Shown: piece after piece, positions 18,510 through 53,526 of the stretch
How positions within the stretch are numbered: position 1 is the stretch's first letter
How the letters are laid out: the number at the start of each line of letters is the position of its first letter
Source: Candidatus Aminicenantes bacterium
Lineage (GTDB): Bacteria; Acidobacteriota; Aminicenantia; JAMOAD01
Direction: 5' to 3'
Assembly: GCA_027061995.1 (NCBI GenBank)
Contig: JAMOUT010000057.1
Location: 65,688-129,687 of the forward strand
DNA length: 64,000 bases
Notes under the pieces: generated by a model
What the model was told of the DNA's origin: nothing
The model's input: the letters and a program-made list of their open reading frames with translations, nothing else
Database searches by the model: none
Position numbers and translations under genes: made by a program

Positions 18510-18568
18510 ATCAACCTCCTTAGTATTGAATATTGAATTTTATCACATAGAATTTATTCTTTCAAATA

Positions 18569-20193: not shown

Positions 20194-20214
20194 TATAATA
20201 AATAAATCTTTTAT

Positions 20215-23914: not shown

Positions 23915-23929
23915 ATATAGGAGGAAAGA

Positions 23930-24718: not shown

Positions 24719-24721
24719 ATA

Positions 24722-26283: not shown

Positions 26284-26294
26284 GGAGAGGAAAG

Positions 26295-28545: not shown

Positions 28546-28554
28546 AGGTAAAAC

Positions 28555-28875
28555 ATGTCTGATGTTGGAAAAGTTAGTAGAAATACACCGAAACCTTTTC
28601 CGACCATAAGAAAATCAAATGACCCTTTAAAACCTGAAACAGGTGAGGTCGAATTCTCCCAATATATGGCTGAAACGGATGAAATAAAGAGGAAAGTCGT
28701 TGAAAGTGCTGCGGAAACAGAAGGTTCCGTAATAAGAGAAGAAGAGAGAAGAAAAAAATTAAGATTAAAATCCAAAAAAAAGGATACTGAAGATGACAAA
28801 GAGATGGAAGAATATGAAACAGAAGGAGATGATGAAAATGATGATGAAGGAAAGATTGTGGATTTAGAGGTATAA
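28555..28875 (+). CDS. hypothetical highly charged protein (basic centre, poly-acidic tail)
   Basis: 106 aa; good RBS; no recognisable domain; C-terminal EDDKEMEEYETEGDDENDDEG. Confidence 0.5.
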   Translation: MSDVGKVSRNTPKPFPTIRKSNDPLKPETGEVEFSQYMAETDEIKRKVVESAAETEGSVIREEERRKKLRLKSKKKDTEDDKEMEEYETEGDDENDDEGKIVDLEV

Positions 28876-28876
28876 A

Positions 28877-29356
28877 ATGGAAGAAAAAATATTTAAAGAA
28901 TTGTATCTTTTTATGAAAGATTATTTGAAAGTTTTAATAGAATCTTATGAGGAGAGTTTAAATTTAAGAAAGATTTTAAGAGAGAATAAAATAGAGAGAA
29001 TTGAAAGAATGATTCCGAGAATAGAAAATTTTGACATTAAAATTAAGATGCTTGAAAATACAAAAAACAGTTTACTGTCAAAACTCGCTAAAGCACTAAA
29101 TATAAATGTCGGAAGCATAGATTGGGAACTTGTCGGAAACAGAGGGGGGAAGGAGATAGCAGAACTCGGTAAATTAATCGAAGAAAAAGTAAAGAATCTT
29201 GTAGATGCTAATATTGTGAATAAAATAATTATCGAAAGACTGATAATGTTTAACAGTTCTCTTCTTAATGTTATAAGAAATGACGGGGATTCATTATACA
29301 GTTCCGACGGTAATATTAACTCTTCTCATGAGAATTCGATGTTAGAGGAGGTTTGA
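28877..29356 (+). CDS. flgN: FlgN-like flagellar export chaperone
   Basis: 159 aa helical protein located between flgM and flgK (as yvyG/flgN in Bacillus); FlgN-like coiled-coil composition. Confidence 0.5.
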   Translation: MEEKIFKELYLFMKDYLKVLIESYEESLNLRKILRENKIERIERMIPRIENFDIKIKMLENTKNSLLSKLAKALNINVGSIDWELVGNRGGKEIAELGKLIEEKVKNLVDANIVNKIIIERLIMFNSSLLNVIRNDGDSLYSSDGNINSSHENSMLEEV

Positions 29357-29357
29357 T

Positions 29358-30797
29358 ATGGTAGGATTATTTAGTTCTCTTGAACTTGCTAAAAAGAGTC
29401 TTATGACTCATCAGTTTGTTTTTCATGTTATAGGGCATAATATAGCTAATGTTAATACACCTGAGTATTCAAGGCAAAGAGTTGAACTCGGAGTTGTCAG
29501 ACCTTTTCGACTCGGAGAAAGGACTGTTGGTGTTGGAGTTGATGTTCTCGGTGTTCATGGTGTCCGAGATAAATATCTTGAATACCAAATACAAAAAGAG
29601 GTTCAGGGAAGGGGTGAAGCTTCATATATGTCGGGAAGTTATAAAATAATAGAATCAATTTTTCAAGAACAAACGGATACCGGAATTTCAAAGATAATGG
29701 GGAATTTTTTTAATTCATGGAATGATTTAACCGTGAATCCGACGGGTCTTCCCGAAAGATCGACCGTTTTAAATAATGGTAAGGTTCTTGCGGACAAAAT
29801 AAAAGAGGCTTACAGAAGATTAAAGGAACAACAGGCGGTTGAAAACGGAGATGTTTCATCAATGGTAAAAGATATTAATGAGACCGGAAAGGAGATAGCA
29901 AAACTTAATATGGAGATAGCGAGCGGAGAAGCCGGCGGAGAAGAGATGAATGATTTAAGAGACAGAAGAAACAAACTTTTGCAGGATTTGGGAGAAAAAG
30001 TCGGAATTAATGTTTATGAAAATGAGATGCATCAGGTAACAGTTGAAATAGCTTCAAGACCTTTTATCGTTGGAAACAATTTAAATGAGCTTTCCGTTCA
30101 AAGGAATGCAAGCAATTCAAATTATTATGATATATATATTAATGAATCGGGTCATGTTGTGAATATAACCAATCAGATAGACGGTGGAGCAATGAAAGGT
30201 CTTATAACAATGAGAGATTCGAGAATCCCCGAATATCTGACAAAATTGGATAATCTTGCTTATGGTTTGATTACAAATGTCAACAATCTTCATAGCGGAG
30301 GGTTTGATTTAAACGGTAATACCGGAGTTAATTTTTTCACCCCCTTTGTTCCTACTACCCCCGGAGATTACACCGGAGCAGCCGCTCTTATTGAGGTAAA
30401 TCCCGCTATTGCATCTGATCCCGAAGCTGTTGCAGCTTCTTCTGTCGCGGGGGAAATCGGTAATAATACCGTAGCTCTTCAAATAGCTGATCTTGAAAGA
30501 GCGTATAATACGGTTGATAGTGATAATGACGGAACTTTTGATTATGGGACATTCCATGATTATTATCATCAACTTGTAACAAGTGTGGGAGCCGAGGCAT
30601 TAAACTCTTATACGAGAGAAACAGCGGAGGGCGAAATAATAACAAATCTTCAGGATAGAAGAAGTGAAGTCTCATCGGTTTCTCTTGATGAAGAGAGTGC
30701 CACACTTATTCAGTTTCAAAAAGCTTATCAAGTGATGGCAAGATTTATGGGGGTCGTGGATAAAATGACCGATATAATGATTAATCTCGGGAGGTAA
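29358..30797 (+). CDS. flgK: flagellar hook-associated protein 1 FlgK
   Basis: 479 aa; N-terminal HNIANVNTPEYSRQ and conserved C-terminal helix. Confidence 0.9.
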   Translation: MVGLFSSLELAKKSLMTHQFVFHVIGHNIANVNTPEYSRQRVELGVVRPFRLGERTVGVGVDVLGVHGVRDKYLEYQIQKEVQGRGEASYMSGSYKIIESIFQEQTDTGISKIMGNFFNSWNDLTVNPTGLPERSTVLNNGKVLADKIKEAYRRLKEQQAVENGDVSSMVKDINETGKEIAKLNMEIASGEAGGEEMNDLRDRRNKLLQDLGEKVGINVYENEMHQVTVEIASRPFIVGNNLNELSVQRNASNSNYYDIYINESGHVVNITNQIDGGAMKGLITMRDSRIPEYLTKLDNLAYGLITNVNNLHSGGFDLNGNTGVNFFTPFVPTTPGDYTGAAALIEVNPAIASDPEAVAASSVAGEIGNNTVALQIADLERAYNTVDSDNDGTFDYGTFHDYYHQLVTSVGAEALNSYTRETAEGEIITNLQDRRSEVSSVSLDEESATLIQFQKAYQVMARFMGVVDKMTDIMINLGR

Positions 30798-30800
30798 AAA

Positions 30801-31688
30801 ATGAGAGCAAACGAGAGTATATGGTATAGGGATGCATTGTTTTATATTAATTTAACCAAATTAAGATATGATAAGGCAATACAAGAGACAACTTCCGGCA
30901 AAAAGATACATAAAATTTCGGATGATCCTTCCGGAGCCGCTTTTGCTCTCGGATTAAAGGATAGAAGGGGGCAGATTGAACAATTTACAAAAAACCTTGA
31001 TACTGCGAGAATATATCTTTCCAATGCCGAGGATGTGTTAAACAAAGTTCAAAATGTTTTAAATAAAGTTGTAACAGATGCAAGTGAGGGAGCAACGGAC
31101 ACTATGGATCTCTCTCAAAAACAATTAATTGCAAATGATATAGACCAATTGAGAACTCAAATAATGGATCTTGCCAATACAAGGGTTATGAACAGATATC
31201 TTTTTTCGGGAACTCTGATTGATACCCAACCTTTTACTGAGACAGGAGGGGTTGTGGGATACAATGGAAATACAAATAATATAGATGTTCAAATAGGATA
31301 TTCCATAAGAGTTACTACAAATCTACCCGGAGATCAGGTTTTTACAAATGGTGCGGATGATGTTTTTCAAGTCCTTGCGGATATAAGAGATCATTTGAAT
31401 GCAAATGATTCTGTTGCCGTGTCAAATGATATACCGAGGCTCGGGAGCATCCTTGATAATATGGCACATCAAAGAGGGATAATTGGTAACAGGATGCATG
31501 AGCTTGATATTATGAGAGATAGCCTTAAGGAATTTTCAAATAATCTTCAGGAGAAGATCTCCGAGATAGAGGATGCAAATATGCCGGAAGCGATATCAAA
31601 TCTCATGAAAGAGGAGACAGGTTTAAGAGTAACTCTTCAAGCCGCATCAAGAATTCAAAGGATTACATTATTTGATTATTTAGGGTAA
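30801..31688 (+). CDS. flgL: flagellar hook-associated protein 3 FlgL
   Basis: 295 aa; flagellin-like N- and C-terminal helices (ISDDPSGAAFALGLK). Confidence 0.8.
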   Translation: MRANESIWYRDALFYINLTKLRYDKAIQETTSGKKIHKISDDPSGAAFALGLKDRRGQIEQFTKNLDTARIYLSNAEDVLNKVQNVLNKVVTDASEGATDTMDLSQKQLIANDIDQLRTQIMDLANTRVMNRYLFSGTLIDTQPFTETGGVVGYNGNTNNIDVQIGYSIRVTTNLPGDQVFTNGADDVFQVLADIRDHLNANDSVAVSNDIPRLGSILDNMAHQRGIIGNRMHELDIMRDSLKEFSNNLQEKISEIEDANMPEAISNLMKEETGLRVTLQAASRIQRITLFDYLG

Positions 31689-31696
31689 AATACGGT

Positions 31697-32167
31697 ATGA
31701 AAATAAAATCAAGAAGTTTCGGAGAACTTGAATTTAAAGAGGAGTCAATAGTCAATTTCCCCGAAGGGATAATAGGTTTTGAGAACCTTAAAAAATGGAT
31801 TCTGATTGAAAATCAATCCATGGAACCTTTTAAATGGATTCAATCCATAGAAGACGGGAATATCGCTCTTATGGTTATTGACCCCCATCTTATAAGAAGC
31901 AATTATAAGATGGCGATTCCATCAATTGAACATCAAAAGATAGGGTTGGAAAATTTGGAAAAAAGGGATGATTGGATAAGTTTTTGTGTTGTTGTTCCGA
32001 AAGAGGATATTAAAAATTCAATCGTTAATTTGAAAGCACCCATATTAATCAATTTGAAAGAAAAAACAGGTAAACAAATAATTCTGTTGAATGATGATTA
32101 TGATGTGGAGGAAAAGTTTTTTTCGGAAGAAACAGTTCGTATGAAGATGGAGCAGGAGAAAGGATAG
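31697..32167 (+). CDS. fliW: flagellar assembly factor FliW
   Basis: 156 aa; IVNFPEGIIGFENLKKWIL matches the FliW N-terminus; immediately upstream of csrA. Confidence 0.85.
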   Translation: MKIKSRSFGELEFKEESIVNFPEGIIGFENLKKWILIENQSMEPFKWIQSIEDGNIALMVIDPHLIRSNYKMAIPSIEHQKIGLENLEKRDDWISFCVVVPKEDIKNSIVNLKAPILINLKEKTGKQIILLNDDYDVEEKFFSEETVRMKMEQEKG

Positions 32168-32401
32168 GTGCTTGTTTTAACCAGAAAGAAAGGGCAATCC
32201 ATAATTATAGGTGATAATATAAAGATTAAAATAGTGTCAATAAACCCGTCAGGTGTTGAAATAGGGATTGAAGCACCGAGAGATATAAATATTGTCAGGG
32301 AGGAACTTCTTGAAAAAGTAAAATCATTGAATATGGAAGCGGCAAACCTGAAGATAGAAAAGGATTCCTTAAACAAACTAAAAAAAATACTTAAAAAATA
32401 G
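32168..32401 (+). CDS. csrA: carbon storage regulator CsrA (GTG start)
   Basis: 77 aa; MLVLTRKKGQSIIIGDNIKIKIV...IGIEAPRDINIVREE is canonical CsrA. Confidence 0.9.
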   Translation: MLVLTRKKGQSIIIGDNIKIKIVSINPSGVEIGIEAPRDINIVREELLEKVKSLNMEAANLKIEKDSLNKLKKILKK

Positions 32402-39474: not shown

Positions 39475-40227
39475 TCAGAAAGTATAAGCTATACCTCCTT
39501 TAACCATAAAACCATTCCAAATACCACCATCGACAAAAACAGAACCATTCTGAATTATTTCAACTCTGATTCCGAAATTTATTATTAAAACCGGGAGGTA
39601 TGATATTTTTATATCCTCAATCTCGGTTAAATCCTCTGATTCGTTTATTGTATAGCTACCCTTTTTTTTATTATGCGAGTAGTAAGCACCAATAGCATTA
39701 TAATTCAAATTTCCTTTAAGGGGTGAGATACCTCCGCCGAATGATATATACGGGTGGATTTTTCCTTCAACCAAAAGATCCCATTTTAAATCAACCACAA
39801 AGGCGGAATAATTTATAATTAAATTTCCCTCTGCATTTGATGATATGTAATCACCCGATACAAAATTCTGTCTGACATGTCCTGATATAATTATTTTGGA
39901 ATCTATGCGAAAGTAGGAAAAACCGAGAGAAAAACTCCCTTTTTCACCACCCGGATAAATTCTTATCTGGAAATTAACTCCACCCCCAGAGGAATCAAAG
40001 TTTACATCCTGGGAGTAATCTCCCAGGGTTTGTGCGGGGTAATCATTTTTAATATTGTCTTGCAAATTATCTTTAAGCAAATCATTTAATTTATCCTCTA
40101 TTGTGTTTTTTAAAAGATTCAATGACCAATTACCATAACCTACGGATATGTAATATTTTGGATTTGAAAAACCAAATGATATGATTAAAATCATGTAAAA
40201 AAACATAAAAATCATTTTTTTTATCAT
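39475..40227 (-). CDS. small outer-membrane beta-barrel protein
   Basis: 250 aa; signal peptide; beta-strand periodicity; C-terminal GGIAYTF. Its ATG overlaps the maf stop (ATGA). Confidence 0.55.
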   Translation of the reverse strand: MIKKMIFMFFYMILIISFGFSNPKYYISVGYGNWSLNLLKNTIEDKLNDLLKDNLQDNIKNDYPAQTLGDYSQDVNFDSSGGGVNFQIRIYPGGEKGSFSLGFSYFRIDSKIIISGHVRQNFVSGDYISSNAEGNLIINYSAFVVDLKWDLLVEGKIHPYISFGGGISPLKGNLNYNAIGAYYSHNKKKGSYTINESEDLTEIEDIKISYLPVLIINFGIRVEIIQNGSVFVDGGIWNGFMVKGGIAYTF

Positions 40228-42014
40228 TTTTTACCCTCCTTTTTTATTTTTATATTATACAATGATGAATTAAAATCATCTATTATCTCTTTGATTAATG
40301 ACAGCATCTTAGTATAATAGGTTATATAACTTGTCTTAAAATTATTGAAATTACCATCTTTTTTATATTTGTTCTGGTCCTTTAAAAACTGATATATCGG
40401 CTCTTGGGTATAATTTTCGATTATTTCCGCTGTTTCCGGGTTGGAATAGATATAATTGTATCCTTTTGATAAATCATCAATGGACAGGTTGTCCTTTTTA
40501 AGAAGTTTTAAATTTTCTTCTATATTCAAAAGGATGTTTTTGAAATTTTTTATATATATTTTAAGAAATCGCTTGATTTTTTTCCATTTATCTTTTGTAA
40601 TGCTATTTGAATGAATTTTACCTATCTCTTTGAAAAACTCCCTTTTGCTTGCTTTAAGTTTAAGAACTTCAAACCATGATTGTGAATTATATATTGAGTC
40701 AAAAAAACCACCCTCTGTAATATTGATATATTTTTCATCCTTTTTAAGGATGGAACTTATATATTCTTTGTATTTCTCAAGTTTATAATTTGTTAATATA
40801 TATCTTCCGAATATATCCCGAACGGTTTTATTCTCTTTTGTATTTATTATCGAGTGTCTTTTGGCTGAAATATAAGTTTGATTATTCCTTTTATAAATCC
40901 AATCATTATCATATATTGTTTCCCTCGTATATTTCAGATTATACGGGAAGGAAAGGTCCTGACCGATGAATAGGATAGGGGAGGCTCCCATAAAATGGGC
41001 AACTTCAAGCGCAAGGGATGCAACAGTTCCCCAAGTGTTAAGGTGTGATATCTCGCCTATGAAATTTTCAAGTAATTCAAGAAGGGGTTTGTCAAAGATA
41101 GTAAGGAAAACTTTATCTTTAAATTCATCAAAAACTCTCGAATCAACCGATGGTTCTGTTATCAGATATGTTTTTTTTGTTTTAATGTTTTTAAGGTGAA
41201 GATAATTAAAATAGGAGGGATCTCCCGCAACAACAAAATGGGGTTCAATATTTAAACTTAGCAATGGTTTTAATGCGGTATCAGTGGAGATTATTATCCC
41301 TCTTTTTTCCATATCTTTTAAATAGAGTATGTTTTTATCAAGAGAGGGGCCTGCCGAAACTATTATAGCGGGAACATCGCTGAAAAGATTTCTTAATCTG
41401 TTTATCGGGGGTGATTTTGTAATGATTTCAAGATTATTTAAAATATTTTTTTGAACTCTTCTGCCATCCTTCATCCTTGTAACAAAATCATAAACCAATT
41501 GAAGAGCGGTATTATTTATCTTCTCCAAGATAGTATCTATCTCTGTTTTTAAGAGATTATTAATTATGGGATGAATTATATAATCTATCTTATCAAGTTT
41601 GACAATATCAATCCCCTCTTGTATCTTTTGTTCAAAATCATTCTTTTGCGGTATTATCATTGTGAAAAAATCAAAATGATTGATATATTCGTCCATATTA
41701 AGATTTTTTACCGCAAATGATAGAAGTTCGGGGTAGGGTTCTATGTAAAACACCCTCTTCCCCTTATCTATTTTATTTAATACTTCTTTTAAAAAATAGG
41801 GGCTTCCTCCACCTATGATAACAATGTGGTCCTCTTTAATCGATATGTTTTCAGCCTGTCTTTCCCCCTCTTTAACAGGGTTATATTTAGAAAACAGGTA
41901 GGTGGGATTTCCGTTTCTTTCTATTATGAGAATGGGGTTATTGTCTTTTGCTTTTGCTTCGAAAAATCGGAGTATATTATTCGGAGGGGTATTATCCGGC
42001 TCCATCTGATTCAT
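40224..42014 (-). CDS. maf: motility accessory factor Maf (DUF115/MptE-like); putative flagellin glycosyltransferase
   Basis: 596 aa; central VPAIIVSAGPSLDKNILYLKDMEKRGIIISTDTALKPLLSLNIEPHFVVAGDP fits the DUF115 core found in Campylobacter/Clostridium Maf proteins. Lies 0.6 kb from fliT. Confidence 0.65.
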   Translation of the reverse strand: MNQMEPDNTPPNNILRFFEAKAKDNNPILIIERNGNPTYLFSKYNPVKEGERQAENISIKEDHIVIIGGGSPYFLKEVLNKIDKGKRVFYIEPYPELLSFAVKNLNMDEYINHFDFFTMIIPQKNDFEQKIQEGIDIVKLDKIDYIIHPIINNLLKTEIDTILEKINNTALQLVYDFVTRMKDGRRVQKNILNNLEIITKSPPINRLRNLFSDVPAIIVSAGPSLDKNILYLKDMEKRGIIISTDTALKPLLSLNIEPHFVVAGDPSYFNYLHLKNIKTKKTYLITEPSVDSRVFDEFKDKVFLTIFDKPLLELLENFIGEISHLNTWGTVASLALEVAHFMGASPILFIGQDLSFPYNLKYTRETIYDNDWIYKRNNQTYISAKRHSIINTKENKTVRDIFGRYILTNYKLEKYKEYISSILKKDEKYINITEGGFFDSIYNSQSWFEVLKLKASKREFFKEIGKIHSNSITKDKWKKIKRFLKIYIKNFKNILLNIEENLKLLKKDNLSIDDLSKGYNYIYSNPETAEIIENYTQEPIYQFLKDQNKYKKDGNFNNFKTSYITYYTKMLSLIKEIIDDFNSSLYNIKIKKEGKK

Positions 42015-42018
42015 ACTA

Positions 42019-42438
42019 TCACTCTCCTATAATTTGTATTAATATCTCTCTGTCTCTGTCTCTCTCATCAAAGTTTAATACGATTATCTGTTGCCAGGTT
42101 CCGAGAAAAAGTTTACCGTTAACAAAAGGGATGGATAATGATGTCTTCTGGAGAGAAGAGCGAAGGTGGGAAAATCCATTATAATCTCCCCATGTTTTTG
42201 TATGATGGTAAGGTTTGTCTGAAGGGGCGATTTTTTCCATTAATTCTTCATAATCTTTCATTAGATTGGGTTCATATTCTATGGTTGTGATTCCTCCTGT
42301 TGAACCTTTGATACTGATTATTACGATTCCTGCGGAAAAATTTTCTTCCATGATAAAATTTTGAACCTCGGAAGTTATATCGACACTTCCGATTTTAGCC
42401 TTTAAAAAACTTGATAATAATCTGCTTTTTACCCTCAT
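42019..42438 (-). CDS. yjbQ: YjbQ/UPF0047 family protein (secondary thiamine-phosphate synthase-like)
   Basis: 139 aa; ITSEV...GIVIISIKGSTGGITTIEYEP...HLRSSL...GTWQ.I.L.EFD pattern of UPF0047. Confidence 0.75.
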   Translation of the reverse strand: MRVKSRLLSSFLKAKIGSVDITSEVQNFIMEENFSAGIVIISIKGSTGGITTIEYEPNLMKDYEELMEKIAPSDKPYHHTKTWGDYNGFSHLRSSLQKTSLSIPFVNGKLFLGTWQQIIVLNFDERDRDREILIQIIGE

Positions 42439-42615
42439 AAAATAATATATTTTAAAATATGATTTTAGTCAATAGTGAAGGGATTAAATAATAAAATTAA
42501 TAGCATGAACTGTGGTAATAAAGGAATAAAAAATCTATTAATAATTATAAGTGTAAAAACAAGAAAATCCTGCGAATTTATAATAAAAGATACTATCTGT
42601 TGTCCTTAATAATAA

Positions 42616-42951
42616 TTATTTATTTTCGTCTATGAAATAGGACGGTTGATCGGTTTTAGTAAATAGATTATTAAGATTTGAGCTTGTATTTTGAAGAAAA
42701 CCTATTTTTTTTTGAATATTTGTGATTTTATCATTTAGGAACTCTCTCAATTCCATAATTTTATTTACCATGTTTTGTAATAACACTTTTTCTTCATCAG
42801 ATTTAATCTGTCTTAACAATAATCTTTTAATTAATTTATCATTATCTTTTATAATTTTATCTACTAATTTCCAATTTCCCTCTAAAATTGCTTTTCTTTC
42901 TTCTTCTATATTATTAGTAAGTTTTGCTATGGTGTCTTCGATATTATCCAT
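42616..42951 (-). CDS. fliT: FliT-like flagellar chaperone
   Basis: About 111-aa helical protein immediately downstream of fliS (hag-flaG-fliD-fliS-fliT order as in Bacillus). Internal Met start gives an 8-nt overlap with the fliS stop. Confidence 0.5.
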   Translation of the reverse strand: MDNIEDTIAKLTNNIEEERKAILEGNWKLVDKIIKDNDKLIKRLLLRQIKSDEEKVLLQNMVNKIMELREFLNDKITNIQKKIGFLQNTSSNLNNLFTKTDQPSYFIDENK

Positions 42952-43393
42952 ATATCTCAACTCTTTTTTCACGAAGATTATCACTGAAATTTATCTCGTT
43001 TTGATCTGAATTTTTTAGGTATTCCCCCTTTTTCTTTTTTATCATCTCATTCCATGCACTCAATAACTCTTTGAATATATTTTCCACCGAAATAATTTTT
43101 GTTATATCGTTTGAAAAATTTGAATCCGTTAATTCCTTGATGGAAAACAGATATAAATTATTAAGATTCTTTGATATGACTCCACCTTTATCATAATCAA
43201 GAATTGAACGGAGGTAAGAGATAACATCTATGGCTTTATTTATCCAATTAATTTTTTCCGACGGATTATTTTGTTCAATACTTTTCTTTATCTTCTCGAG
43301 ATAATCAAGAAGTCCTCTGTAAATAAAGGAGATTAACTCATCATTGTTAAGGCTTAAAATCTCATTTTCAACATAATTTGTTTCAAAAGCCAT
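42944..43393 (-). CDS. fliS: flagellin-specific chaperone FliS
   Basis: 149 aa; SILDYDKGGVISKNLNNLYLF matches the FliS core (GG.IA.NL..LY). Confidence 0.8.
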   Translation of the reverse strand: MAFETNYVENEILSLNNDELISFIYRGLLDYLEKIKKSIEQNNPSEKINWINKAIDVISYLRSILDYDKGGVISKNLNNLYLFSIKELTDSNFSNDITKIISVENIFKELLSAWNEMIKKKKGEYLKNSDQNEINFSDNLREKRVEIYG

Positions 43394-43402
43394 TTTATTC
43401 TC

Positions 43403-45316
43403 CTATGAAAGATTTATACCGCTAAAATTACTTTGCAGACTCTGTAATAATTGCTGCATCTGTGCCATAGCCCTGTTTGCCGCATCAAATTCCTGAAATA
43501 ATCGTTGTCTCTCATCTTCAAGTTGATCTTTAAAAGATTCTATCTTCTCATTTATAGTTTCAATGTTTTTATCAAGATTATTTAACTCTTTTACCAATTG
43601 ACCTTCATTATTGATGTCAGTGCTCATTAATGATTCAAGTTTGTTATTTAAATTGGAAACAACACCATAACTCAATTGAACATTACCAAATGAACCGGAG
43701 GAACTCATTGTTCCGTATATTTTAAGACCTTTTACAGGACCTTCTGTCCCGGTTAGAGTTCTTCCTTCTCCGGTAGCTGCGTATCCTCCGATTGTGCCTG
43801 CTATATCTGTTCCCGTATCTGTCAATGCTGTTGTTCCTACTCCAGTGCCATTTGCGGTGGCTGCAATATCGGATACAACGGATAATGTTTCTGATGATCC
43901 GTAATTATCTGTTTCAAAAACAAGATAGTTTCCGTTGCTTGTCGCTGTAATCGGGATATTATTATCATCCATTTCAGTATTTATTTTATCCATGATATCG
44001 GTTAGAGTGTCATTTTCGGAAAGATTAACAGTGTAATTTTTTGATTTATATGTTATGGTAAGTGTCTCATCCTGAGCAATACCTCCCGAAGGAACCTCTT
44101 CACTTCCTTGAACTTTGGCGATTTCAGCCGCTTGAGTTATATTCACAGAATAAGTTCCCGCTTGAGTATCTTCTGTCCTTAAAAGGTATGTAACATTATC
44201 ATTGGTGGTAGAGCCTATTTCCTCAAACACTTTTTTTACACCTTGGTAATCATTTTGCAAGGCTGTTTCAAGTTTGTCGGTATCAAGATATATGGTTCCG
44301 TCATTGTTCATTTTGATTCCGATATCGATTAATGATTTATAGGTATCAGAGCTATTACTCCCTTCAATTTGTGATGTTATCATGGATTGGATGGAAGATT
44401 GAACCGAAAGAGCGGCTGAATTACCTGACAAAATTCCCGCTTTGCCCGCTGCTGAATTATATGTGAATTGTTTATTAAGATAACCGATGATATCATTATA
44501 TTTGGAGATAAAATCATTTAATTTTGATTCGACATTGGAAAAATCGTTAGAAATCTTGAGAGTGACGGTTTTACTTGCATCAGCCTCTTTTAAATTAAGG
44601 GTAACTCCTTCAATTACATCTGAGATTGTATTTGATGATCTTGTTATTGCATCACCCGCATCCGTTGTATTAACATTTATAAGAGCATCTTGGGCGGAAA
44701 TCTTTTCAGTCATATTTGTTCCTACGCTTGAATCGGATATTGTAAAAGCATAATCACTACCTGTTTCGGTTGAAGTGATTTGTAATTTATAATCCGAACC
44801 ATCATAGATGATAGTTGCTCTGACATCAAGCTCATCAAGATTATTAATCGCATCCCTTAAACCCGTTAAAGAGCGGGTATCACCCGTTATATCAATATTT
44901 TTGGTTTTTCCGTTTTGTGTTATTGAGAAAGTTGTTCCATCAGTCAGAACATTATCACTCGGTGATGAAAAACCATCCGAGGAATCGGATTCCACGGTGG
45001 CAAGTTGACGAACGATTATATAATAATCTCCGTTTTGAGCGCCGCTTTGGGTTGTCGCGGTTAATATATCTTCATTTGATACGGAGGCTGAGCCTGTTGA
45101 GATAGAATCAAAATTTGCCAAATTTTCCGAAACAGATTGAAGTGATGATACTTTGGTGTTTAGTGTTTGAAGAGCTTTTTTCTCGGCTTCATAATTATAT
45201 ATCTCATTTTGATAGGTGTTTAAAGGATAGCTTTTAGCATAAATTATTTTATTAACAAGATCATTTACATCAAGCGGTCCTGCCGCAAACATGCCGCTAT
45301 AAATAGAGCTATCCAT
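43403..45316 (-). CDS. fliD: flagellar filament cap protein FliD
   Basis: 637 aa; conserved N-terminal and C-terminal FliD helices; the N-terminus resembles the HAP2 N-terminal domain. Confidence 0.85.
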   Translation of the reverse strand: MDSSIYSGMFAAGPLDVNDLVNKIIYAKSYPLNTYQNEIYNYEAEKKALQTLNTKVSSLQSVSENLANFDSISTGSASVSNEDILTATTQSGAQNGDYYIIVRQLATVESDSSDGFSSPSDNVLTDGTTFSITQNGKTKNIDITGDTRSLTGLRDAINNLDELDVRATIIYDGSDYKLQITSTETGSDYAFTISDSSVGTNMTEKISAQDALINVNTTDAGDAITRSSNTISDVIEGVTLNLKEADASKTVTLKISNDFSNVESKLNDFISKYNDIIGYLNKQFTYNSAAGKAGILSGNSAALSVQSSIQSMITSQIEGSNSSDTYKSLIDIGIKMNNDGTIYLDTDKLETALQNDYQGVKKVFEEIGSTTNDNVTYLLRTEDTQAGTYSVNITQAAEIAKVQGSEEVPSGGIAQDETLTITYKSKNYTVNLSENDTLTDIMDKINTEMDDNNIPITATSNGNYLVFETDNYGSSETLSVVSDIAATANGTGVGTTALTDTGTDIAGTIGGYAATGEGRTLTGTEGPVKGLKIYGTMSSSGSFGNVQLSYGVVSNLNNKLESLMSTDINNEGQLVKELNNLDKNIETINEKIESFKDQLEDERQRLFQEFDAANRAMAQMQQLLQSLQSNFSGINLS

Positions 45317-45328
45317 TATTACCTCCTT

Positions 45329-45844
45329 TTATATGTTTTCATTAATGAAAACACCTTTTAAATTATCTCCTTTGGACATATATTCTCTGTTATTATTAAG
45401 TTTATCATTTTTCTGATTGATTTTGTAGAGCTCCACTATAAATTTATAAAACTCTTCGGGTGGTATCTGTCTGATAACCTTTTTTGTCTTTTTATCAAGA
45501 ATCTTAATGAGATTTCTTTTTGTAATTTTGTCCTTTTCAAATTTTAGTTCGGTATTTTCAAGGTTATTAAGTTTTGCATTTAATTTTTCCAGATTTTCAT
45601 TAAGAGGTTTGTTTTTGTCAAACGGTGTTTTTTCTTTATTGTTTAATTGAATCGGATTATCGGTGGACTTTATTTTGTCATTATCATTTTTGAAGATTTC
45701 GACCACATCGGAATTATCCGAAGAATTGCGATCTCTGTATATTTTAGAAGAAGAATCGGAAGTATCGGGAGGGGAGATTTGTTCCCCTCCCTTATTAAGT
45801 ACAGATAGTTCTTTATATTCTATATTTCCGGTTGTAACAAGCAT
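45329..45844 (-). CDS. flaG: flagellar protein FlaG
   Basis: 171 aa; C-terminal KVIRQIPPEEFYKFIVEL matches the FlaG family; positioned between flagellin and fliD. Confidence 0.75.
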   Translation of the reverse strand: MLVTTGNIEYKELSVLNKGGEQISPPDTSDSSSKIYRDRNSSDNSDVVEIFKNDNDKIKSTDNPIQLNNKEKTPFDKNKPLNENLEKLNAKLNNLENTELKFEKDKITKRNLIKILDKKTKKVIRQIPPEEFYKFIVELYKINQKNDKLNNNREYMSKGDNLKGVFINENI

Positions 45845-45889
45845 TTTTCACCTCTCTTAAAAATAAAGAGAGTCAGTGTTCGTTAAATA

Positions 45890-46723
45890 TTACCTGAACA
45901 ACCCTAATACCATCTGTGAAGAAGCGTTTGCCTGTCCGAGTGATGCCATACCACTTTGTAGCAATATCTGGAATTTGGTTAAGTTAACCATCTCCTGAGC
46001 CATATTAGCATCTCTGATAATTGACTCAGCACCTTTCAGGTTGATTGCCTGTGTGTTGATAATAGCGATTGAGTTCTGTAATCTGTTTGATTGTGCTCCG
46101 AGGACACCTCTCCATCTTGAGATAGAAGTTATGGCATTTCTTATCTCTGTTAAAGCTGATTGTGCTCCTGATGCAGTGCTCAAACTGCTTGTCAAACCAA
46201 GAGAACTTGTTGTCGCAGCTCCACCGATTGACAAAGTGATTGTGCTTTGAACATGTGTGTCTCCGACAAAGATTGTTTTTTGAACCGCACCTGAAGAACT
46301 GAAAAGATGTTCTCCCTTAAAGTTAACGGAACTGAAAACTCTGTCGATTTCAGCTTTAATTTGGCTATACTCGGTGTCGATTGTTTGTCTTTCGGTAGCA
46401 CCGACTGTTCCTGATGCTGATTCTTCGGCAAGTGTTACGGCTCTGTTTAAAAGATCGGTAACTTTTGCTAAAGCTCCATCAGCAATCTGGATGATACCGG
46501 ATGCATCATTTGCATTCCTGTAAGCTTGGTTCAGAGCATAGACATCAGCTTTTAAAAGGTTAGCAATAGCAAGACCTGCCGCATCATCTCCGGCATCAAC
46601 AATACGATAACCGGATGAAATTCTTGCGATAGTCTTGTTCAAACCGATGTTTGAAGAATAAAGATTTTGCTGTGCATACAGCGATGAAACATTAGTGATA
46701 ACACTAAAAGATTGTGCTCCCAT
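45890..46723 (-). CDS. fliC: flagellin (short, Hag-like, no hypervariable D2/D3 domain)
   Basis: 277 aa from the internal Met with a GGAGGAGG SD. N-terminal RISSGYRIVDAGDDAAGLAIA; C-terminal LGAQSNRLQ...SIIRDANMAQEMVNLTKFQILLQ...ASSQMVLGLFR. Confidence 0.9.
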   Translation of the reverse strand: MGAQSFSVITNVSSLYAQQNLYSSNIGLNKTIARISSGYRIVDAGDDAAGLAIANLLKADVYALNQAYRNANDASGIIQIADGALAKVTDLLNRAVTLAEESASGTVGATERQTIDTEYSQIKAEIDRVFSSVNFKGEHLFSSSGAVQKTIFVGDTHVQSTITLSIGGAATTSSLGLTSSLSTASGAQSALTEIRNAITSISRWRGVLGAQSNRLQNSIAIINTQAINLKGAESIIRDANMAQEMVNLTKFQILLQSGMASLGQANASSQMVLGLFR

Positions 46724-46750
46724 AAAGCACCTCCTCCATAAGGTTTTTTC

Positions 46751-46764
46751 GGGCATCCATGCCC
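46751..46764 (-). promoter_or_regulatory. 5' UTR hairpin with GGA in the loop (candidate CsrA binding site 1); the SD GGAGGAGG at 46730-46737 is a second GGA site
   Basis: Minus-strand RNA gggcaUGGAugccc: 5-bp stem with loop UGGA, and CAUGGAUG resembles the CsrA SELEX motif. It lies 20 nt upstream of the SD. Confidence 0.5.
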
Positions 46765-46783
46765 TGATTAAATTTCAATTATT

Positions 46784-46810
46784 AAATCGTAATAATTGAA
46801 AAAAACTTTA
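46784..46810 (-). promoter_or_regulatory. candidate sigma-28 (FliA/SigD) promoter for flagellin
   Basis: Minus strand TAAA-15nt-tACGATtt, compared with the consensus TAAA-N15-GCCGATAT. Confidence 0.35.
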
Positions 46811-46824
46811 GGGTATTTTTTATT

Positions 46825-47745
46825 TTATTTTTTATTTTCAAGATATGAGATTAAACTCATTGCAGCGGTTACACCGCTTCCGGCCGCAATGACAACTTGT
46901 GAGTATTCGTTTTTGACGGAATCTCCGGCTGCATAAACTCCTTCGACACTCGTTTTCTTTGTATAATCGGTAATTATATACCCTCTTTCATCAAGTTCTA
47001 TAAAACCTTTGAGAAAATTGGTATTAGGCGCATTTCCCACGAAAAGAAAAACTCCGTCAACTTTTATAAATTTTTCTTCTCCGGATTCTCTGTTTTTTAT
47101 TCTGATTCCCTCTATTTTATTATCTCCGACAATTTCCATAAGTTGGGTGTTTAAGAAAAATTCAACATTATCTTTTTCTTTTATCCTTTCCTGCAATATT
47201 TTCTCGGCATTGATTTTGGGCAAGAATTCAATATATTTTATACTTCTGACAAAATTAAGGGCGAAAAGACCCTCCTGTATTCCTGAATTTCCGGCTCCGA
47301 TTATTGCAATATCCTTATCTTTAAAAAAAGGTGCATCACAAGTTGCACAAAAAGCAACACCTTTACCAATAAACTTTTCCTCTCCCGGAACTCCGGTTCT
47401 TTTAGCGGAAGAACCGACCGCAATTATTATTCCCCTCGCTTCATATTCATCCCAATCGGTTTTAATGAGAAATCCGTCATCTTTTTTTATAATCTCTTTA
47501 ACTTCGTCAAACTCAAATTTGACACCGAAATTTTCAGCTTGTTTTTGCATATCATTAAGGAGATCGGTAGGATTAAGAGGTTTAGTGAAACCCGGATAAT
47601 TTTCAATCACATCACTTAATACTATTTGACCGCCGACAGCTGTTTTTTCTATAACAAGAGTTTTTAACAAACCTCTTGCGGTATAAATGGAAGCCGCGAC
47701 ACCAGCCGGGCCTCCACCTATTATAATTACATCATATTTTTCCAT
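46825..47745 (-). CDS. trxB: thioredoxin-disulfide reductase
   Basis: 306 aa; two FAD/NADPH GxGxxG motifs (IIGGGPAGVAA, IIGAGNSGIQEG); redox-active CATCDAPFF. Confidence 0.9.
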   Translation of the reverse strand: MEKYDVIIIGGGPAGVAASIYTARGLLKTLVIEKTAVGGQIVLSDVIENYPGFTKPLNPTDLLNDMQKQAENFGVKFEFDEVKEIIKKDDGFLIKTDWDEYEARGIIIAVGSSAKRTGVPGEEKFIGKGVAFCATCDAPFFKDKDIAIIGAGNSGIQEGLFALNFVRSIKYIEFLPKINAEKILQERIKEKDNVEFFLNTQLMEIVGDNKIEGIRIKNRESGEEKFIKVDGVFLFVGNAPNTNFLKGFIELDERGYIITDYTKKTSVEGVYAAGDSVKNEYSQVVIAAGSGVTAAMSLISYLENKK

Positions 47746-52842: not shown

Positions 52843-53526
52843 CTACCTGCAACTCTTTTTTTCTAACTCTTTCAGTTTTTTATAAACTTTCATCTCATCT
52901 TTGGTAACAATCATTCCGCTGTTCTTTTGAGTTCTGTATATCTTTTTTATTCTGTTCAGATCTATGTTAAACCCTATTTTTTTAAAAGCATTTATTATAC
53001 AGGGTTTTTTCTCCATCAGGGTTTCATAACTTATAACAATACTGTTCTTGATATTCTCATGAGCGGCGATTATCGCATTATTATTGTCAAACCAGCTGAG
53101 TTTGAATTGAGAGATTCCTCTCCTGAGCATACTTGCTTTTGAATCAGCGGGATTCCTGAAAATAAAAACAGCTTTAAGATTTTTTCGACCTATATGTCTG
53201 TAGAAAAATATTGCCGGAGTTAAGACTATTTTCAGACCGCTCCAACCATCATTTTCATTTAAAAGTTTTACTATTTTATTTAAATCTCTGGTGTTTTCAT
53301 CAGTCATGGCTTGCTCTATAAGTCTTTTTGAAAGTTCTTTTTCAAGAGAATATTCAAAATAACCCTCTTTATTGTAAATATCCGAACCTATATCAGATAA
53401 AAATTTAACTCCCGCACTCTCCAAAAGTTGACAAACAAGGGATGTTCCGCTTCTCGGATGTCCGCTTACAATTACTGTTTTTCCCATTTTTTCGGGAGTT
53501 AAATCATTTTTGTTTTCATCGCTCAT
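52843..53526 (-). CDS. sulfotransferase family protein
   Basis: 227 aa; 5'-PSB-like VIVSGHPRSGTSL; 3'-PB-like IFRNPADSKAS. Confidence 0.55.
   Translation of the reverse strand: MSDENKNDLTPEKMGKTVIVSGHPRSGTSLVCQLLESAGVKFLSDIGSDIYNKEGYFEYSLEKELSKRLIEQAMTDENTRDLNKIVKLLNENDGWSGLKIVLTPAIFFYRHIGRKNLKAVFIFRNPADSKASMLRRGISQFKLSWFDNNNAIIAAHENIKNSIVISYETLMEKKPCIINAFKKIGFNIDLNRIKKIYRTQKNSGMIVTKDEMKVYKKLKELEKKSCR

What the first reader, a model, noticed from the sequence alone, without database searches (positions are those of the whole stretch)
40224..46764. Maf (DUF115) putative flagellin glycosyltransferase co-located with fliC-flaG-fliD-fliS-fliT; flagellin has a Ser/Thr-rich central patch
The 596-aa ORF contains the DUF115/MptE-like core (AIIVSAGPSLDKNILYLK...IIISTDTALKPLL...PHFVVAGDP). 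This core defines the motility accessory factors that transfer nonulosonic acids (pseudaminic or legionaminic acid) onto flagellin in Campylobacter, Helicobacter, Aeromonas, Clostridium and Geobacillus.
The gene is about 0.6 kb from fliT and is apparently co-transcribed with yjbQ upstream and a small OMP downstream (ATGA overlap).
The 277-aa flagellin lacks a D2/D3 domain, but its central segment (TITLSIGGAATTSSLGLTSSLSTASGAQS) is Ser/Thr-rich and is a plausible set of O-glycan acceptor sites.
No pse or leg biosynthesis genes lie in this window. The sugar-nucleotide cluster at 14-21 kb (rfbB-like gene, two epimerases, a GT4) could supply a different glycan.
Basis: partly seen in the sequence, partly recalled or inferred. 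Interest (0 to 1): 0.55.

Follow-up and report, generated by a model that had tools for sequence, protein, structure and literature searches.

The report
Maf flagellin glycosyltransferase in an Aminicenantes bacterium
The 596-residue gene is a genuine, apparently active member of the known Maf family of enzymes that attach sialic-acid-like sugars to flagellin, found in an uncultured Aminicenantes-type bacterium; it is an ordinary new member of that family, though its conserved gene partners are unusual and no sugar-supply genes are visible nearby.

Summary
Window 40224-42014 (-) encodes a 596-aa protein with a strong MptE-like/DUF115 domain. Its AlphaFold model matches the three-domain Magnetospirillum Maf structure 5MU5 over its full length. 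Both acidic residues shown by mutagenesis to be essential in Maf are present (D265, D353). It lies 0.6 kb downstream of fliC-flaG-fliD-fliS-ORF111. The 277-aa flagellin has a Ser/Thr-rich D1 loop (40% S/T, against 15% elsewhere).

Flagellar linkage is not the conserved feature. Across the Maf clade (41-100% identity; probably Aminicenantes) the constant unit is yjbQ-maf, usually followed by an outer-membrane beta-barrel gene. A conserved sigma70-like promoter sits 5 nt before the yjbQ ATG. All four lineages nevertheless carry a fliC operon with an S/T-rich loop.

No NeuB, DegT, PseG or CMP-synthetase gene lies in about 84 kb. One 54% relative has an ATP-grasp and cytidylyltransferase pair 6 kb from fliC. 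The rfbB/SDR/GT4 cluster is an unlikely donor source, because characterised Mafs use CMP-activated ulosonic acids.

Verdict: new member of a known kind, modest interest. The donor sugar and the role of yjbQ remain open.

The parts
40224..42014 (-). maf: 596-aa three-domain Maf-family (motility-associated factor) glycosyltransferase, with no signal peptide
   Evidence: PF01973 at E 9.4e-40. Weak full-length PseD-like match. AF2 pLDDT 86.3 and pTM 0.82. Foldseek top hit 5MU5 at E 1.7e-17, TM 0.55/0.53.
41550..41975 (-). Maf N-terminal Rossmann-like domain (about residues 14-155), with invariant G68, G70 and E92 (GxG ... acidic motif)
   Evidence: Secondary structure. Foldseek partial hits to spermidine synthases and SAM methyltransferases. 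Invariant columns. PF20157 is not detected by sequence.
40944..41450 (-). Maf central MptE-like/DUF115 catalytic domain (residues 189-357). Contains D265 (41220-41222), T330 (41025-41027) and D353 (40956-40958).
   Evidence: The alignment to 5MU5 maps E324 to D265 and D415 to D353. Mutagenesis literature. Both acids are invariant in 31 homologs. Position 330 is Thr in the 3 closest sequences and Ser in the other 28.
40236..40676 (-). Maf C-terminal helical-bundle domain (about residues 447-593)
   Evidence: Helices 447-593 in the AF2 model. Covered by the full-length alignment to 5MU5.
42019..42438 (-). yjbQ (UPF0047), first gene of the conserved yjbQ-maf-OMP unit; its stop lies 4 nt before the maf ATG
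   Evidence: PF01894 at E 6.7e-32 and TIGR00149 above cutoff. Junction read. Adjacent to maf, or one gene away, in all clade relatives.
42444..42472 (-). Sigma70-like promoter TTGACT-17 nt-TATATT, ending 5 nt before the yjbQ ATG (possible leaderless transcript)
   Evidence: The same geometry is conserved in L083, L084 (purL upstream) and L003/L004 (unrelated upstream), while the rest of the spacer is not alignable.
39475..40227 (-). 250-aa signal-peptide outer-membrane beta-barrel protein; its start overlaps the maf stop (ATGA), with AGGAGG upstream
   Evidence: AF2 pLDDT 86.5 with about 10 strands. Foldseek returns only OMP barrels such as OmpA, autotransporter domains and OmpG. The family is 17 clusters, and the only names given are Aminicenantes.
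45890..46723 (-). fliC: 277-aa D0/D1-only flagellin with a Ser/Thr-rich D1 loop (residues about 141-192)
   Evidence: Flagellin_N and Flagellin_C. Gene call of 277 aa. GGAGGAGG Shine-Dalgarno before the second ATG. Loop S/T 0.40 against 0.15 in the rest.
46724..46830 (-). fliC upstream region: TAAA-N16-CGAT sigma28/sigmaD-like motif; hairpin GGGCA-UGGA-UGCCC with GGA in the loop; GGA-rich Shine-Dalgarno (CsrA-type two-site leader)
   Evidence: Sequence. The hairpin is in the MFE and centroid structures. fliW and csrA are in the window.
45329..45844 (-). flaG
   Evidence: PF03646 at E 4.3e-15.
43403..45316 (-). fliD, filament cap
   Evidence: FliD_N, FliD_C and Flagellin_IN.
42944..43393 (-). 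fliS, flagellin export chaperone
   Evidence: PF02561 at E 1.4e-26 and TIGR00208 above cutoff.
42616..42951 (-). 111-aa helical ORF in the FliT position (unverified). Conserved after fliS in relatives.
   Evidence: No Pfam or NCBIfam hit. 40% identical to the L131 ORF110, and positional equivalents occur in L083, L129 and L131.

Best explanation
The 596-aa ORF is a complete and probably active Maf-family glycosyltransferase of an uncultured, flagellated diderm bacterium, most likely Aminicenantes (Acidobacteriota).

Proposed mechanism:
1. In the cytoplasm, the central sialyltransferase-like (MptE-like/DUF115) domain uses D265 and D353, with T330 nearby, to transfer a CMP-activated ulosonic acid. 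The donor would be a pseudaminic- or legionaminic-type nonulosonic acid, or possibly Kdo.
2. The acceptors are Ser/Thr hydroxyls in the surface-exposed D1 loop (residues about 141-192) of the single 277-aa flagellin.
3. This happens before FliS binding and type III export.
4. The gene is transcribed with yjbQ and an outer-membrane barrel gene from its own sigma70-type promoter, possibly as a leaderless mRNA. It is not part of the sigma28/CsrA-controlled fliC unit immediately upstream.

Shown here: family membership, three-domain fold, conservation of the catalytic residues, operon junctions, conservation of the promoter motif, the S/T-rich loop, and co-occurrence of maf with fliC in all four clade lineages.

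Inferred: that flagellin is the substrate, the identity of the donor, the timing relative to export, and the transcription start.
For: Family membership and activity:
- PF01973 at 136.6 bits. The best PDB sequence hit is 5MU5.
- The AF2 model (pLDDT 86.3) matches 5MU5 over its full length at E 1.7e-17, while archaeal MptE/HPPK matches only the central domain.
- 5MU5 E324 and D415 map to D265 and D353. These residues are essential in MmMaf, CbMaf and GkMaf and invariant in 31 homologs.

Genomic association of the family:
- More distant homologs (25-31% identity over residues about 22-590) sit inside flagellin-maf-fliD-fliS operons. These lie beside clusters encoding NeuB, PseG-like, DegT, CTP_transf_3, ATP-grasp and CBS-NTP-transferase proteins.
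- In an NJ tree those canonical Acidobacteriota Mafs are the next outgroup to the window clade plus its sister clade.

Linkage to flagella in this clade:
- In the window and in L083, maf lies 0.6 kb downstream of the filament operon.
- In L086, flgF, flgG, flgA, flgH and flgI lie 5 kb away.
- The same assemblies that hold the 65%, 54% and 41% Mafs also hold a fliC-flaG-fliD(-fliS-small ORF) operon.

Acceptor:
- Loop S/T is 0.31-0.41 across the clade flagellins, against 0.12-0.17 in the rest of the protein.
- Between the window and L083 the flagellins differ at 7 of 277 positions. Three differences are Ser to Thr within the patch and one is Gln to Ser.
- D1-loop glycosylation of D2/D3-less flagellins by Maf is published.

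Donor:
- The 54% relative and L131 carry an ATP-grasp and CTP_transf_3 pair about 6 kb from fliC. Both proteins match profiles built from the Maf-linked NulO clusters (357 and 212 bits).
Against: - No NeuB, DegT, PseG-like, CTP_transf_3 or ATP-grasp homolog occurs in the 64-kb window or in 10 kb beyond each end, even at E <= 1.
- Flagellar adjacency is not conserved. The conserved neighbours are yjbQ and, down to 54% identity, an OMP gene.
- The nearest sister clade (27-32% identity) has no flagellar or NulO neighbours. In three of its loci maf follows a GT2-TPR gene.
- The 212-aa family that accompanies maf in 27 of 80 loci is absent here.
- PF20157 (the Maf N-terminal domain) is not detected by sequence.
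- The conserved Ser shown to be required in CbMaf and GkMaf is Thr here.
- An S/T-rich loop is not specific to glycosylated flagellins.
- No biochemical data exist for this lineage.
Confidence: 0.6

Rival explanations
1. The enzyme is an active Maf-type transferase, but flagellin is not its main substrate, or not its only one. In this clade it has left the filament operon and may modify other proteins or glycans, such as pilins, surface proteins or envelope components. The flagellar adjacency in the window would then be incidental.
For: - The yjbQ-maf module lies next to purL/ftsY in L084, next to an M23 peptidase gene and T2SS/type IV pilus-type genes (secretin, T2SSF, AAA_22 ATPase) in L003, and next to Memo, phosphomutase, nitroreductase and a HAD gene in L086.
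- It has its own sigma70-like promoter and no sigma28 motif.
- The sister clade has no flagellar context. A prepilin gene lies near maf in L010, and T2SS/T4P-type genes lie near it in L014.
- maf is translationally coupled to an OMP gene.
Against: - All four clade lineages retain fliC operons with S/T-rich loops.
- Two independent contexts (the window/L083, and L086) lie within 5 kb of flagellar genes.
- The full three-domain architecture is kept, including the C-terminal helical domain that the literature likens to FliS and flagellin.
- No non-flagellin substrate of a Maf protein is known to me.
- At 39% identity the OMP family occurs without maf.
Confidence: 0.17
2. The enzyme does glycosylate flagellin, but the lineage has no dedicated nonulosonic-acid pathway. 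The natural donor would be a housekeeping CMP-sugar of a diderm cell, namely CMP-Kdo, giving Ser/Thr-O-Kdo flagellin.
For: - CbMaf and GkMaf transfer Kdo from endogenous CMP-Kdo onto flagellin in E. coli.
- No NulO genes occur in about 84 kb.
- The organism is diderm: flgH and flgI in the window, BamD/YfiO in L088, and OMP barrels.
- The cytidylyltransferase near fliC in relatives gives only weak KdsB-like NCBIfam matches and no PseF or LegF equivalog.
Against: - Kdo transfer has been shown only as promiscuity in heterologous hosts.
- 84 kb is a small fraction of a genome, so a NulO cluster may simply lie elsewhere.
- The relatives' cytidylyltransferase and ATP-grasp proteins match those of bona fide NeuB-containing clusters strongly.
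Confidence: 0.1
3. The protein is not a glycosyltransferase here. The MptE-like domain would act as a pyrophosphokinase-type enzyme, working with YjbQ (which has a secondary thiamine-phosphate synthase activity) in cofactor metabolism. Alternatively, the protein is a catalytically inert relic.
For: - PF01973 is named after the archaeal 6-hydroxymethylpterin diphosphokinase, and that enzyme (8SD5) is the second-best structural match.
- Linkage to yjbQ is conserved across 41-100% identity.
- In L086 a thiamine-binding-protein-family gene (PF01910) lies about 4.5 kb from maf.
Against: - MptE is a single domain of about 215-240 residues. This protein matches Maf over all three domains, and far better (E 1.7e-17 against 5e-05).
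- The Maf catalytic acids and about 30 other positions are invariant with homologs embedded in flagellin/NeuB loci, which argues against both a changed chemistry and decay.
- 78% identity to L083 with an intact ORF indicates purifying selection.
Confidence: 0.04

Closest known systems
Maf from Magnetospirillum magneticum AMB-1 (PDB 5MU5)
   Same: Three-domain layout: an N-terminal Rossmann-like domain, a central sialyltransferase-like/DUF115 domain and a C-terminal helical bundle. Full-length Foldseek match at E 1.7e-17. The catalytic E324 and D415 correspond to D265 and D353.
   Different: Only about 14% identity over the structural alignment. Overall TM is 0.55 and rmsd 8.7 A, so the domain orientations or details differ. 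The window protein is shorter (596 aa against 666 aa for the deposited chain; Foldseek lists 632).
Clostridium botulinum CbMaf and Geobacillus kaustophilus GkMaf (biochemically characterised; PMC11339370, bioRxiv 10.1101/2020.06.03.131540)
   Same: They act on short flagellins that lack D2/D3 and glycosylate Ser/Thr in the D1 loop. They share the catalytic acid pair. The window flagellin has the same D0/D1-only layout with an S/T-rich loop.
   Different: Those maf genes lie in flagellar glycosylation islands with NulO biosynthesis genes, whereas here none lies within about 84 kb. The conserved Ser (S334 in CbMaf, S356 in GkMaf) is Thr here.
Acidobacteriota Maf genes in flagellin-flagellin-maf-fliD-fliS operons with a divergent NulO cluster (loci L017-L023, L026, L029)
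   Same: Homologous over residues about 22-590 at 26-29% identity. They are the next outgroup in the NJ tree and belong to the same phylum-level lineage.
   Different: There maf is embedded between flagellin and fliD, beside NeuB, PseG-like, ATP-grasp, CBS-NTP-transferase, DegT and CTP_transf_3 genes and a 212-aa unknown. Here maf lies outside the filament operon, paired with yjbQ and an OMP gene, with none of those neighbours.
Archaeal MptE (6-hydroxymethyl-7,8-dihydropterin pyrophosphokinase, PDB 8SD5)
   Same: The central domain shares the fold and the Pfam family (PF01973).
   Different: MptE is a single-domain protein of about 215-240 residues. It lacks the N- and C-terminal Maf domains and matches only residues about 189-263 by sequence.

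Membership tests
Maf (motility-associated factor) flagellin nonulosonic-acid glycosyltransferases | Central DUF115/MptE-like (PF01973) domain above the Pfam gathering score | tested here: met
   136.6 bits against a cutoff of 34.6; residues 189-357 cover 169 of 171 profile positions.
Maf (motility-associated factor) flagellin nonulosonic-acid glycosyltransferases | Three-domain architecture as in the only solved Maf structure (5MU5) | tested here: met
   The AF2 model (pLDDT 86.3) matches 5MU5 over its full length at Foldseek E 1.7e-17, prob 1.00, TM 0.55/0.53.
Maf (motility-associated factor) flagellin nonulosonic-acid glycosyltransferases | Acidic residues equivalent to MmMaf E324 and D415 (CbMaf D272/D357), which are required for activity | tested here: met
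   D265 and D353 by phmmer alignment to 5MU5. Both are invariant in 31 homologs. The mutagenesis is cited.
Maf (motility-associated factor) flagellin nonulosonic-acid glycosyltransferases | Conserved Ser near the active site (CbMaf S334 / GkMaf S356) | tested here: inconclusive
   The column holds Ser in 28 of 31 homologs and Thr in the window protein and its two closest relatives. The hydroxyl is kept, but the effect is unknown. The mapping to S334 is by spacing from D353, not by a direct alignment to CbMaf.
Maf (motility-associated factor) flagellin nonulosonic-acid glycosyltransferases | N-terminal Maf domain (PF20157) detectable by sequence | tested here: not met
   No PF20157 hit even at E <= 10 for the window protein, P0008 or P0009, whereas P0011 hits at 2.1e-09. 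The N-terminal region still aligns with PF20157-bearing homologs (96% query coverage; invariant G68, G70 and E92) and has the expected fold. About half of the listed homologs also lack the Pfam call, so this is a weak criterion.
Maf (motility-associated factor) flagellin nonulosonic-acid glycosyltransferases | Genomic association with flagellin / filament genes | tested here: met
   0.6 kb downstream of fliC-flaG-fliD-fliS-ORF111. This adjacency is kept only in the 78% relative and lost in the 65% and 54% relatives. fliC operons are present in the same assemblies for all lineages.
Maf (motility-associated factor) flagellin nonulosonic-acid glycosyltransferases | A nonulosonic-acid donor pathway (NeuB-family synthase, CMP-NulO synthetase, PseB/C- or LegB/C-type enzymes) in the locus or genome | tested here: not met
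   No hit to profiles of NeuB, DegT, PseG-like, CTP_transf_3, CBS-NTP-transferase or ATP-grasp in the window plus 10 kb each side, at E <= 1. An ATP-grasp and CTP_transf_3 pair lies near fliC in the 54% relative.
Maf (motility-associated factor) flagellin nonulosonic-acid glycosyltransferases | Demonstrated O-glycosylation of flagellin Ser/Thr | not testable with these tools
   Requires mass spectrometry or a co-expression assay.
MptE (archaeal 6-hydroxymethylpterin diphosphokinase) | Single-domain protein of about 215-240 residues, consisting of the PF01973 domain only | tested here: not met
   The protein is 596 aa, with extra N- and C-terminal domains that match Maf. 8SD5 aligns only to residues 189-263 by sequence and matches the model far more weakly than 5MU5 does.
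FliT (flagellar export chaperone), for the 111-aa ORF at 42616-42951 | Sequence match to a FliT family model | tested here: not met
   No Pfam or NCBIfam match at E <= 0.01-0.1. No match to the 144-aa family that follows fliS in Acidobacteriota. Only the position after fliS and its conservation in relatives support the label.
YjbQ / UPF0047 | Match above the curated cutoff | tested here: met
   PF01894 at 110.5 bits against 27; TIGR00149 at 91.7 bits against 67.75.
Outer-membrane beta-barrel proteins, for the 250-aa ORF | N-terminal signal sequence, a closed antiparallel beta-barrel and a C-terminal aromatic residue | tested here: met
   Hydrophobic N-terminal helix 2-19, about 10 long strands and a C-terminal ...AYTF. 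All Foldseek matches with E <= 0.001 are OM barrels, although TM scores are low at 0.2-0.4. There is no Pfam family.

The most novel reading that the evidence does not exclude
In this Aminicenantes clade, Maf may have been uncoupled from both the filament operon and any dedicated nonulosonic-acid cluster. It would work within a new conserved unit, yjbQ-maf(-OMP), expressed constitutively from a leaderless sigma70 transcript. It would use a housekeeping donor such as CMP-Kdo, or a donor made or processed with the help of the uncharacterised YjbQ protein. That would give a native Ser/Thr-O-octulosonic (or otherwise new) flagellin modification, or modification of non-flagellar envelope proteins.
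Probability: 0.1. Interest if true: 0.6.

Novelty: new member of a known kind. Interest (0 to 1): 0.3.

Why it matters
If the reading is right, Maf-type flagellin glycosylation extends to Aminicenantes, an uncultured and environmentally widespread lineage in which neither motility nor protein glycosylation has been studied.

The practical value lies in two testable oddities:
- A Maf clade has left the filament operon and is consistently paired with yjbQ, a protein family whose primary function is unknown.
- No donor-sugar genes are visible locally, in an enzyme family already shown to accept CMP-Kdo.

A natural Kdo-transferring or donor-flexible Maf would interest glyco-engineers. A functional link to YjbQ would give that orphan family a context. 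As it stands, the finding is a routine annotation-level discovery.

Tried and rejected
1. Walking the 144-kb source contig beyond the window to look for NulO genes. Only 10 kb each side could be reached, because look-ups are limited to proteins encoded in the window. About 54 kb upstream and 7.5 kb downstream remain unseen.
3. Testing the 111-aa ORF as FliT. It has no family hit, and no match to the 144-aa post-fliS family of Acidobacteriota.
4. Searching for a sigma28 motif (TAAA-N14-17-CCGATAW). There were 3 hits in the window, none near maf, and the count was not above chance. The fliC upstream element is a looser match that I read by eye.
5. I first relabelled the 13971-15083 gene as GDP-mannose dehydratase from its Pfam name. 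I retracted that after NCBIfam placed it as RfbB.
6. The 346-aa SDR next to the filament operon in L131 looked like a PseB candidate. NCBIfam gives only sub-threshold generic epimerase hits, so I make no claim about it.
7. The OMP gene as an obligate Maf partner. At 39% identity the family lies between fusA and proS with no maf nearby.
8. The metagenome scan with the relatives' cytidylyltransferase found the ATP-grasp/CTP_transf_3 pair in 3 further contigs, but with no NeuB beside it and nothing attributable to the window's organism.
9. Literature searches found nothing linking Aminicenantes with flagella or NulO sugars, and nothing on YjbQ relevant to glycosylation.

Full report
**What is there**

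A run of minus-strand genes occupies 39475-46756. In transcription order they are:
- fliC, 45890-46723 for the 277-aa form;
- flaG, 45329-45844;
- fliD, 43403-45316;
- fliS, 42944-43393;
- a 111-aa ORF, 42616-42951;
- a 177-nt gap;
- yjbQ, 42019-42438;
- the 596-aa ORF, 40224-42014;
- a 250-aa ORF, 39475-40227.

Pfam and NCBIfam confirm every label except one. Flagellin_N/C, FlaG, FliD_N/C, FliS and UPF0047/YjbQ all score above their curated cutoffs. The 596-aa protein carries PF01973 (MptE-like/DUF115) at residues 189-357, with E 9.4e-40. The 111-aa 'FliT' and the 250-aa 'OMP' have no family match.

Four nucleotides separate the yjbQ stop from the maf ATG, and the maf stop overlaps the next start in ATGA. 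Shine-Dalgarno-like sequences lie inside the upstream genes.

The window corresponds to positions about 63.6-127.6 kb of a 144-kb metagenomic contig. The closest named relatives of Maf and of the 250-aa ORF are Candidatus Aminicenantes MAGs. flgH and flgI in the window, BamD/YfiO just outside it and the predicted OM barrel indicate a diderm cell.

**Is it really a Maf?**

Yes, on four lines of evidence.
1. The best PDB sequence match is 5MU5, the Magnetospirillum magneticum Maf.
2. An AlphaFold model built on 31 homologs (pLDDT 86.3, pTM 0.82) has the expected three parts. These are an N-terminal Rossmann-like domain, the central DUF115 domain and a C-terminal helical bundle. Foldseek against the PDB returns 5MU5 first, over the full length (E 1.7e-17, TM 0.55/0.53). 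The archaeal MptE kinase is a distant second and covers only the central domain.
3. The residues shown by mutagenesis to be essential are conserved. These are E324 and D415 in MmMaf, equivalent to D272 and D357 in CbMaf. They align with D265 and D353, which are invariant in all 31 aligned homologs. A third required residue, a conserved Ser, is Thr330 in the window protein and its two closest relatives, and Ser in the other 28.
4. Homologs at 25-31% identity over nearly the whole length sit in textbook contexts. In Acidobacteriota the order is flagellin-flagellin-maf-fliD-fliS, with a divergent cluster encoding NeuB, PseG-like, ATP-grasp, CBS-nucleotidyltransferase, DegT and CTP_transf_3 proteins. 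Firmicutes loci are similar.

The Pfam N-terminal Maf model (PF20157) is not detected in the window clade. The region nevertheless aligns with PF20157-bearing homologs and has the expected fold.

**What the neighbourhood says**

I compared Maf homologs at five levels of identity.

| Maf identity | Locus | Context of the yjbQ-maf module |
|---|---|---|
| 100% | window | directly downstream of the filament operon |
| 78% | L083 | same as the window |
| 65% | L084 | between purL and ftsY |
| 54% | L003, L004 | between an M23 peptidase gene and unrelated genes, with T2SS/type IV pilus-type genes nearby |
| 41% | L086 | yjbQ-nitroreductase-maf-HAD phosphatase, with flgF-flgI 5 kb away |

The constant element is yjbQ next to maf, or one gene away. 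Down to 54% identity the barrel protein follows maf.

A sigma70-like promoter is conserved directly upstream of yjbQ in three unrelated upstream contexts. Its form is TTGAC(T/A), 17 nt, TATATT, 5 nt, ATG. The rest of the spacer does not align. With the -10 element ending 5 nt before the start codon, the transcript may be leaderless. That is an inference from geometry only.

The fliC gene has different signals. It has a TAAA-N16-CGAT motif. It also has a 5' hairpin presenting GGA in its loop, plus a GGA-rich Shine-Dalgarno. This is the layout of CsrA-controlled flagellin leaders, and fliW and csrA are in the window. So maf is probably not part of the flagellin transcription unit, although read-through from ORF111 cannot be excluded, because no terminator was found in the gap.

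The 250-aa protein is a signal-peptide outer-membrane beta-barrel by predicted fold. It belongs to a small family whose only source-given names are Aminicenantes. At 39% identity it occurs without maf, so I do not regard it as a functional partner.

**Is flagellin still the likely substrate?**

Several observations say yes.
- The assemblies that hold the 65%, 54% and 41% Mafs each also hold a fliC-flaG-fliD operon. fliS and a small ORF follow where the contig extends far enough. Maf and flagellin therefore co-occur in all four lineages.
- The flagellin loop between the N- and C-terminal helical domains is 31-41% Ser/Thr across the clade, against 12-17% in the rest of the protein.
- The window and L083 flagellins are 97.5% identical, while their Mafs are only 78% identical. 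Of the 7 differences, 3 are Ser to Thr within the patch and 1 is Gln to Ser.
- Published work shows that Maf enzymes glycosylate the D1 loop in flagellins that lack D2/D3.
- In an NJ tree (no support values) the window clade groups first with an 'orphan-context' clade and next with the canonical flagellar Acidobacteriota Mafs. This is consistent with descent from a flagellar-operon Maf.

Against this, the sister clade shows no flagellar neighbours at all, and in three of its loci maf follows a GT2-TPR gene. An S/T-rich loop is also not diagnostic of glycosylation.

**The donor problem**

I built profiles from the Maf-linked NulO genes of 80 loci. They find nothing in the window or in 10 kb beyond each end, even at E <= 1.

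The sugar genes at 14-21 kb are RfbB (TIGR01181, above cutoff), two SDRs of unassigned specificity, a GT4 and an alpha-L-fucosidase. These make dTDP-, UDP- or GDP-type sugars. Characterised Mafs have a sialyltransferase-like catalytic domain and use CMP-activated ulosonic acids, so this cluster is an unlikely donor source.

Two leads remain.
- In the 54% relative (L096), and in L131 from the same metagenome as the window, an ATP-grasp and CTP_transf_3 pair lies about 6 kb upstream of fliC. Both proteins match the profiles from NeuB-containing clusters strongly (357 and 212 bits). No NeuB is nearby, and the same holds for three further metagenomic copies of the pair. NCBIfam gives the cytidylyltransferase only weak KdsB-like hits.
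- CbMaf and GkMaf can use endogenous CMP-Kdo, a metabolite that any LPS-making diderm should have.

**Verdict**

I put about 0.6 on cytoplasmic O-glycosylation of the flagellin D1 loop with a CMP-ulosonic acid. I put about 0.17 on a mainly non-flagellin substrate, about 0.1 on a Kdo-type housekeeping donor, and a few percent on a non-glycosyltransferase role.

It is a new member of a known family in an unstudied lineage, so interest is modest. The unexplained features worth recording are the conserved yjbQ-maf pairing with its own promoter, and the lack of any visible donor pathway.

Noticed in passing
window 46724-46830 (-); fliW 31697-32167 (+); csrA about 32168-32401 (+): The fliC leader has a sigma28/sigmaD-like TAAA-N16-CGAT motif. 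It also has a hairpin GGGCA-UGGA-UGCCC presenting GGA in its loop, and a second GGA motif in the GGAGGAGG Shine-Dalgarno. This is the two-site layout of CsrA-repressed flagellin mRNAs, and fliW and csrA are both in the window. It also supports the 277-aa start rather than the 288-aa start.
   Followed up: partly
window 42444-42472 (-); L083, L084, L003, L004 upstream of yjbQ: A TTGAC(T/A)-17 nt-TATATT element ends exactly 5 nt before the yjbQ ATG. It is conserved in three different upstream contexts within an otherwise unalignable spacer. This suggests a dedicated, possibly leaderless, yjbQ-maf-OMP transcript.
   Followed up: partly
window 42019-42438 (-) and L003, L004, L083-L087: yjbQ (UPF0047, primary function unknown) is next to maf, or one gene away, in every clade member from 41% to 100% Maf identity, although all other flanking genes differ. 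None of the other 78 reference-genome Maf loci (L005-L082) has a yjbQ neighbour.
   Followed up: partly
27 of the 80 reference-genome Maf loci, e.g. L021 (209 aa), L058 (204 aa), L075 7360-7998: An uncharacterised protein family lies beside maf or the flagellin genes in Acidobacteriota, Firmicutes and other loci. Most members are about 200-226 aa, and some ORF calls are as short as about 116 aa. It has no Pfam match and is absent from the window. It may be an unrecognised component of Maf glycosylation islands.
   Followed up: no
L006, L009, L013 (sister clade, 31% Maf identity): maf is directly preceded by a GT2 glycosyltransferase with C-terminal TPR repeats and by a protein of about 285 aa with no family match. 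No flagellar or NulO genes lie within 10 kb.
   Followed up: partly
L003 7103-13871; L014 1329-9816; L010 17315-17788: T2SS/type IV pilus-type genes lie within a few kb of maf homologs in three loci of the window clade and its sister clade. Confirmed by Pfam are a secretin, a T2SSF platform protein and an AAA_22 ATPase in L003, and an N-methyl prepilin in L010. The L014 genes were matched only by BLAST clustering to those of L003.
   Followed up: no
L096 2164-3841; L131 2162-3842; L100, L101, L102: A conserved ATP-grasp and CTP_transf_3 gene pair lies about 6 kb upstream of fliC in relatives. Both proteins are orthologous by profile score to genes of NeuB-containing clusters, yet no NeuB is adjacent. 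The cytidylyltransferase matches no PseF, LegF or KdsB equivalog.
   Followed up: partly
window 41550-41975 (-), Maf residues 68-92: The N-terminal Maf domain has an invariant GxG...E pattern (IIGGGSPY ... VFYIEP) that resembles the nucleotide-binding motifs I and II of spermidine synthases and SAM methyltransferases. Foldseek also pairs this domain with those enzymes. The literature calls the domain's function unclear.
   Followed up: partly
window 45890-46723 versus L083 5252-6085: The flagellin is 97.5% identical between the two organisms, while Maf is 78% and the OMP 83% identical. This is unusually strong conservation for a flagellin, including its 'variable' loop.
   Followed up: no
window 52843-53526 (-): A 227-aa ORF has a P-loop-like GHPRSGTS motif and only sub-threshold sulfotransferase matches (E about 1e-3). 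It has no NCBIfam family.
   Followed up: partly
window 13971-22738: RfbB, two unassigned SDRs, a DUF92 membrane protein, YebC, a GT4 and an alpha-L-fucosidase lie immediately upstream of the flgF-flgL/fliW/csrA cluster (23132-32401). There is no evident link to Maf chemistry.
   Followed up: partly
window about 42-701 versus ENA contig k141_845422: The coordinate offset between the window and the ENA contig is 63657 at the rpe gene but 63607 at maf and at the S8 peptidase gene. This implies a difference of about 50 bp between assemblies somewhere between window 701 and 40224.
   Followed up: no
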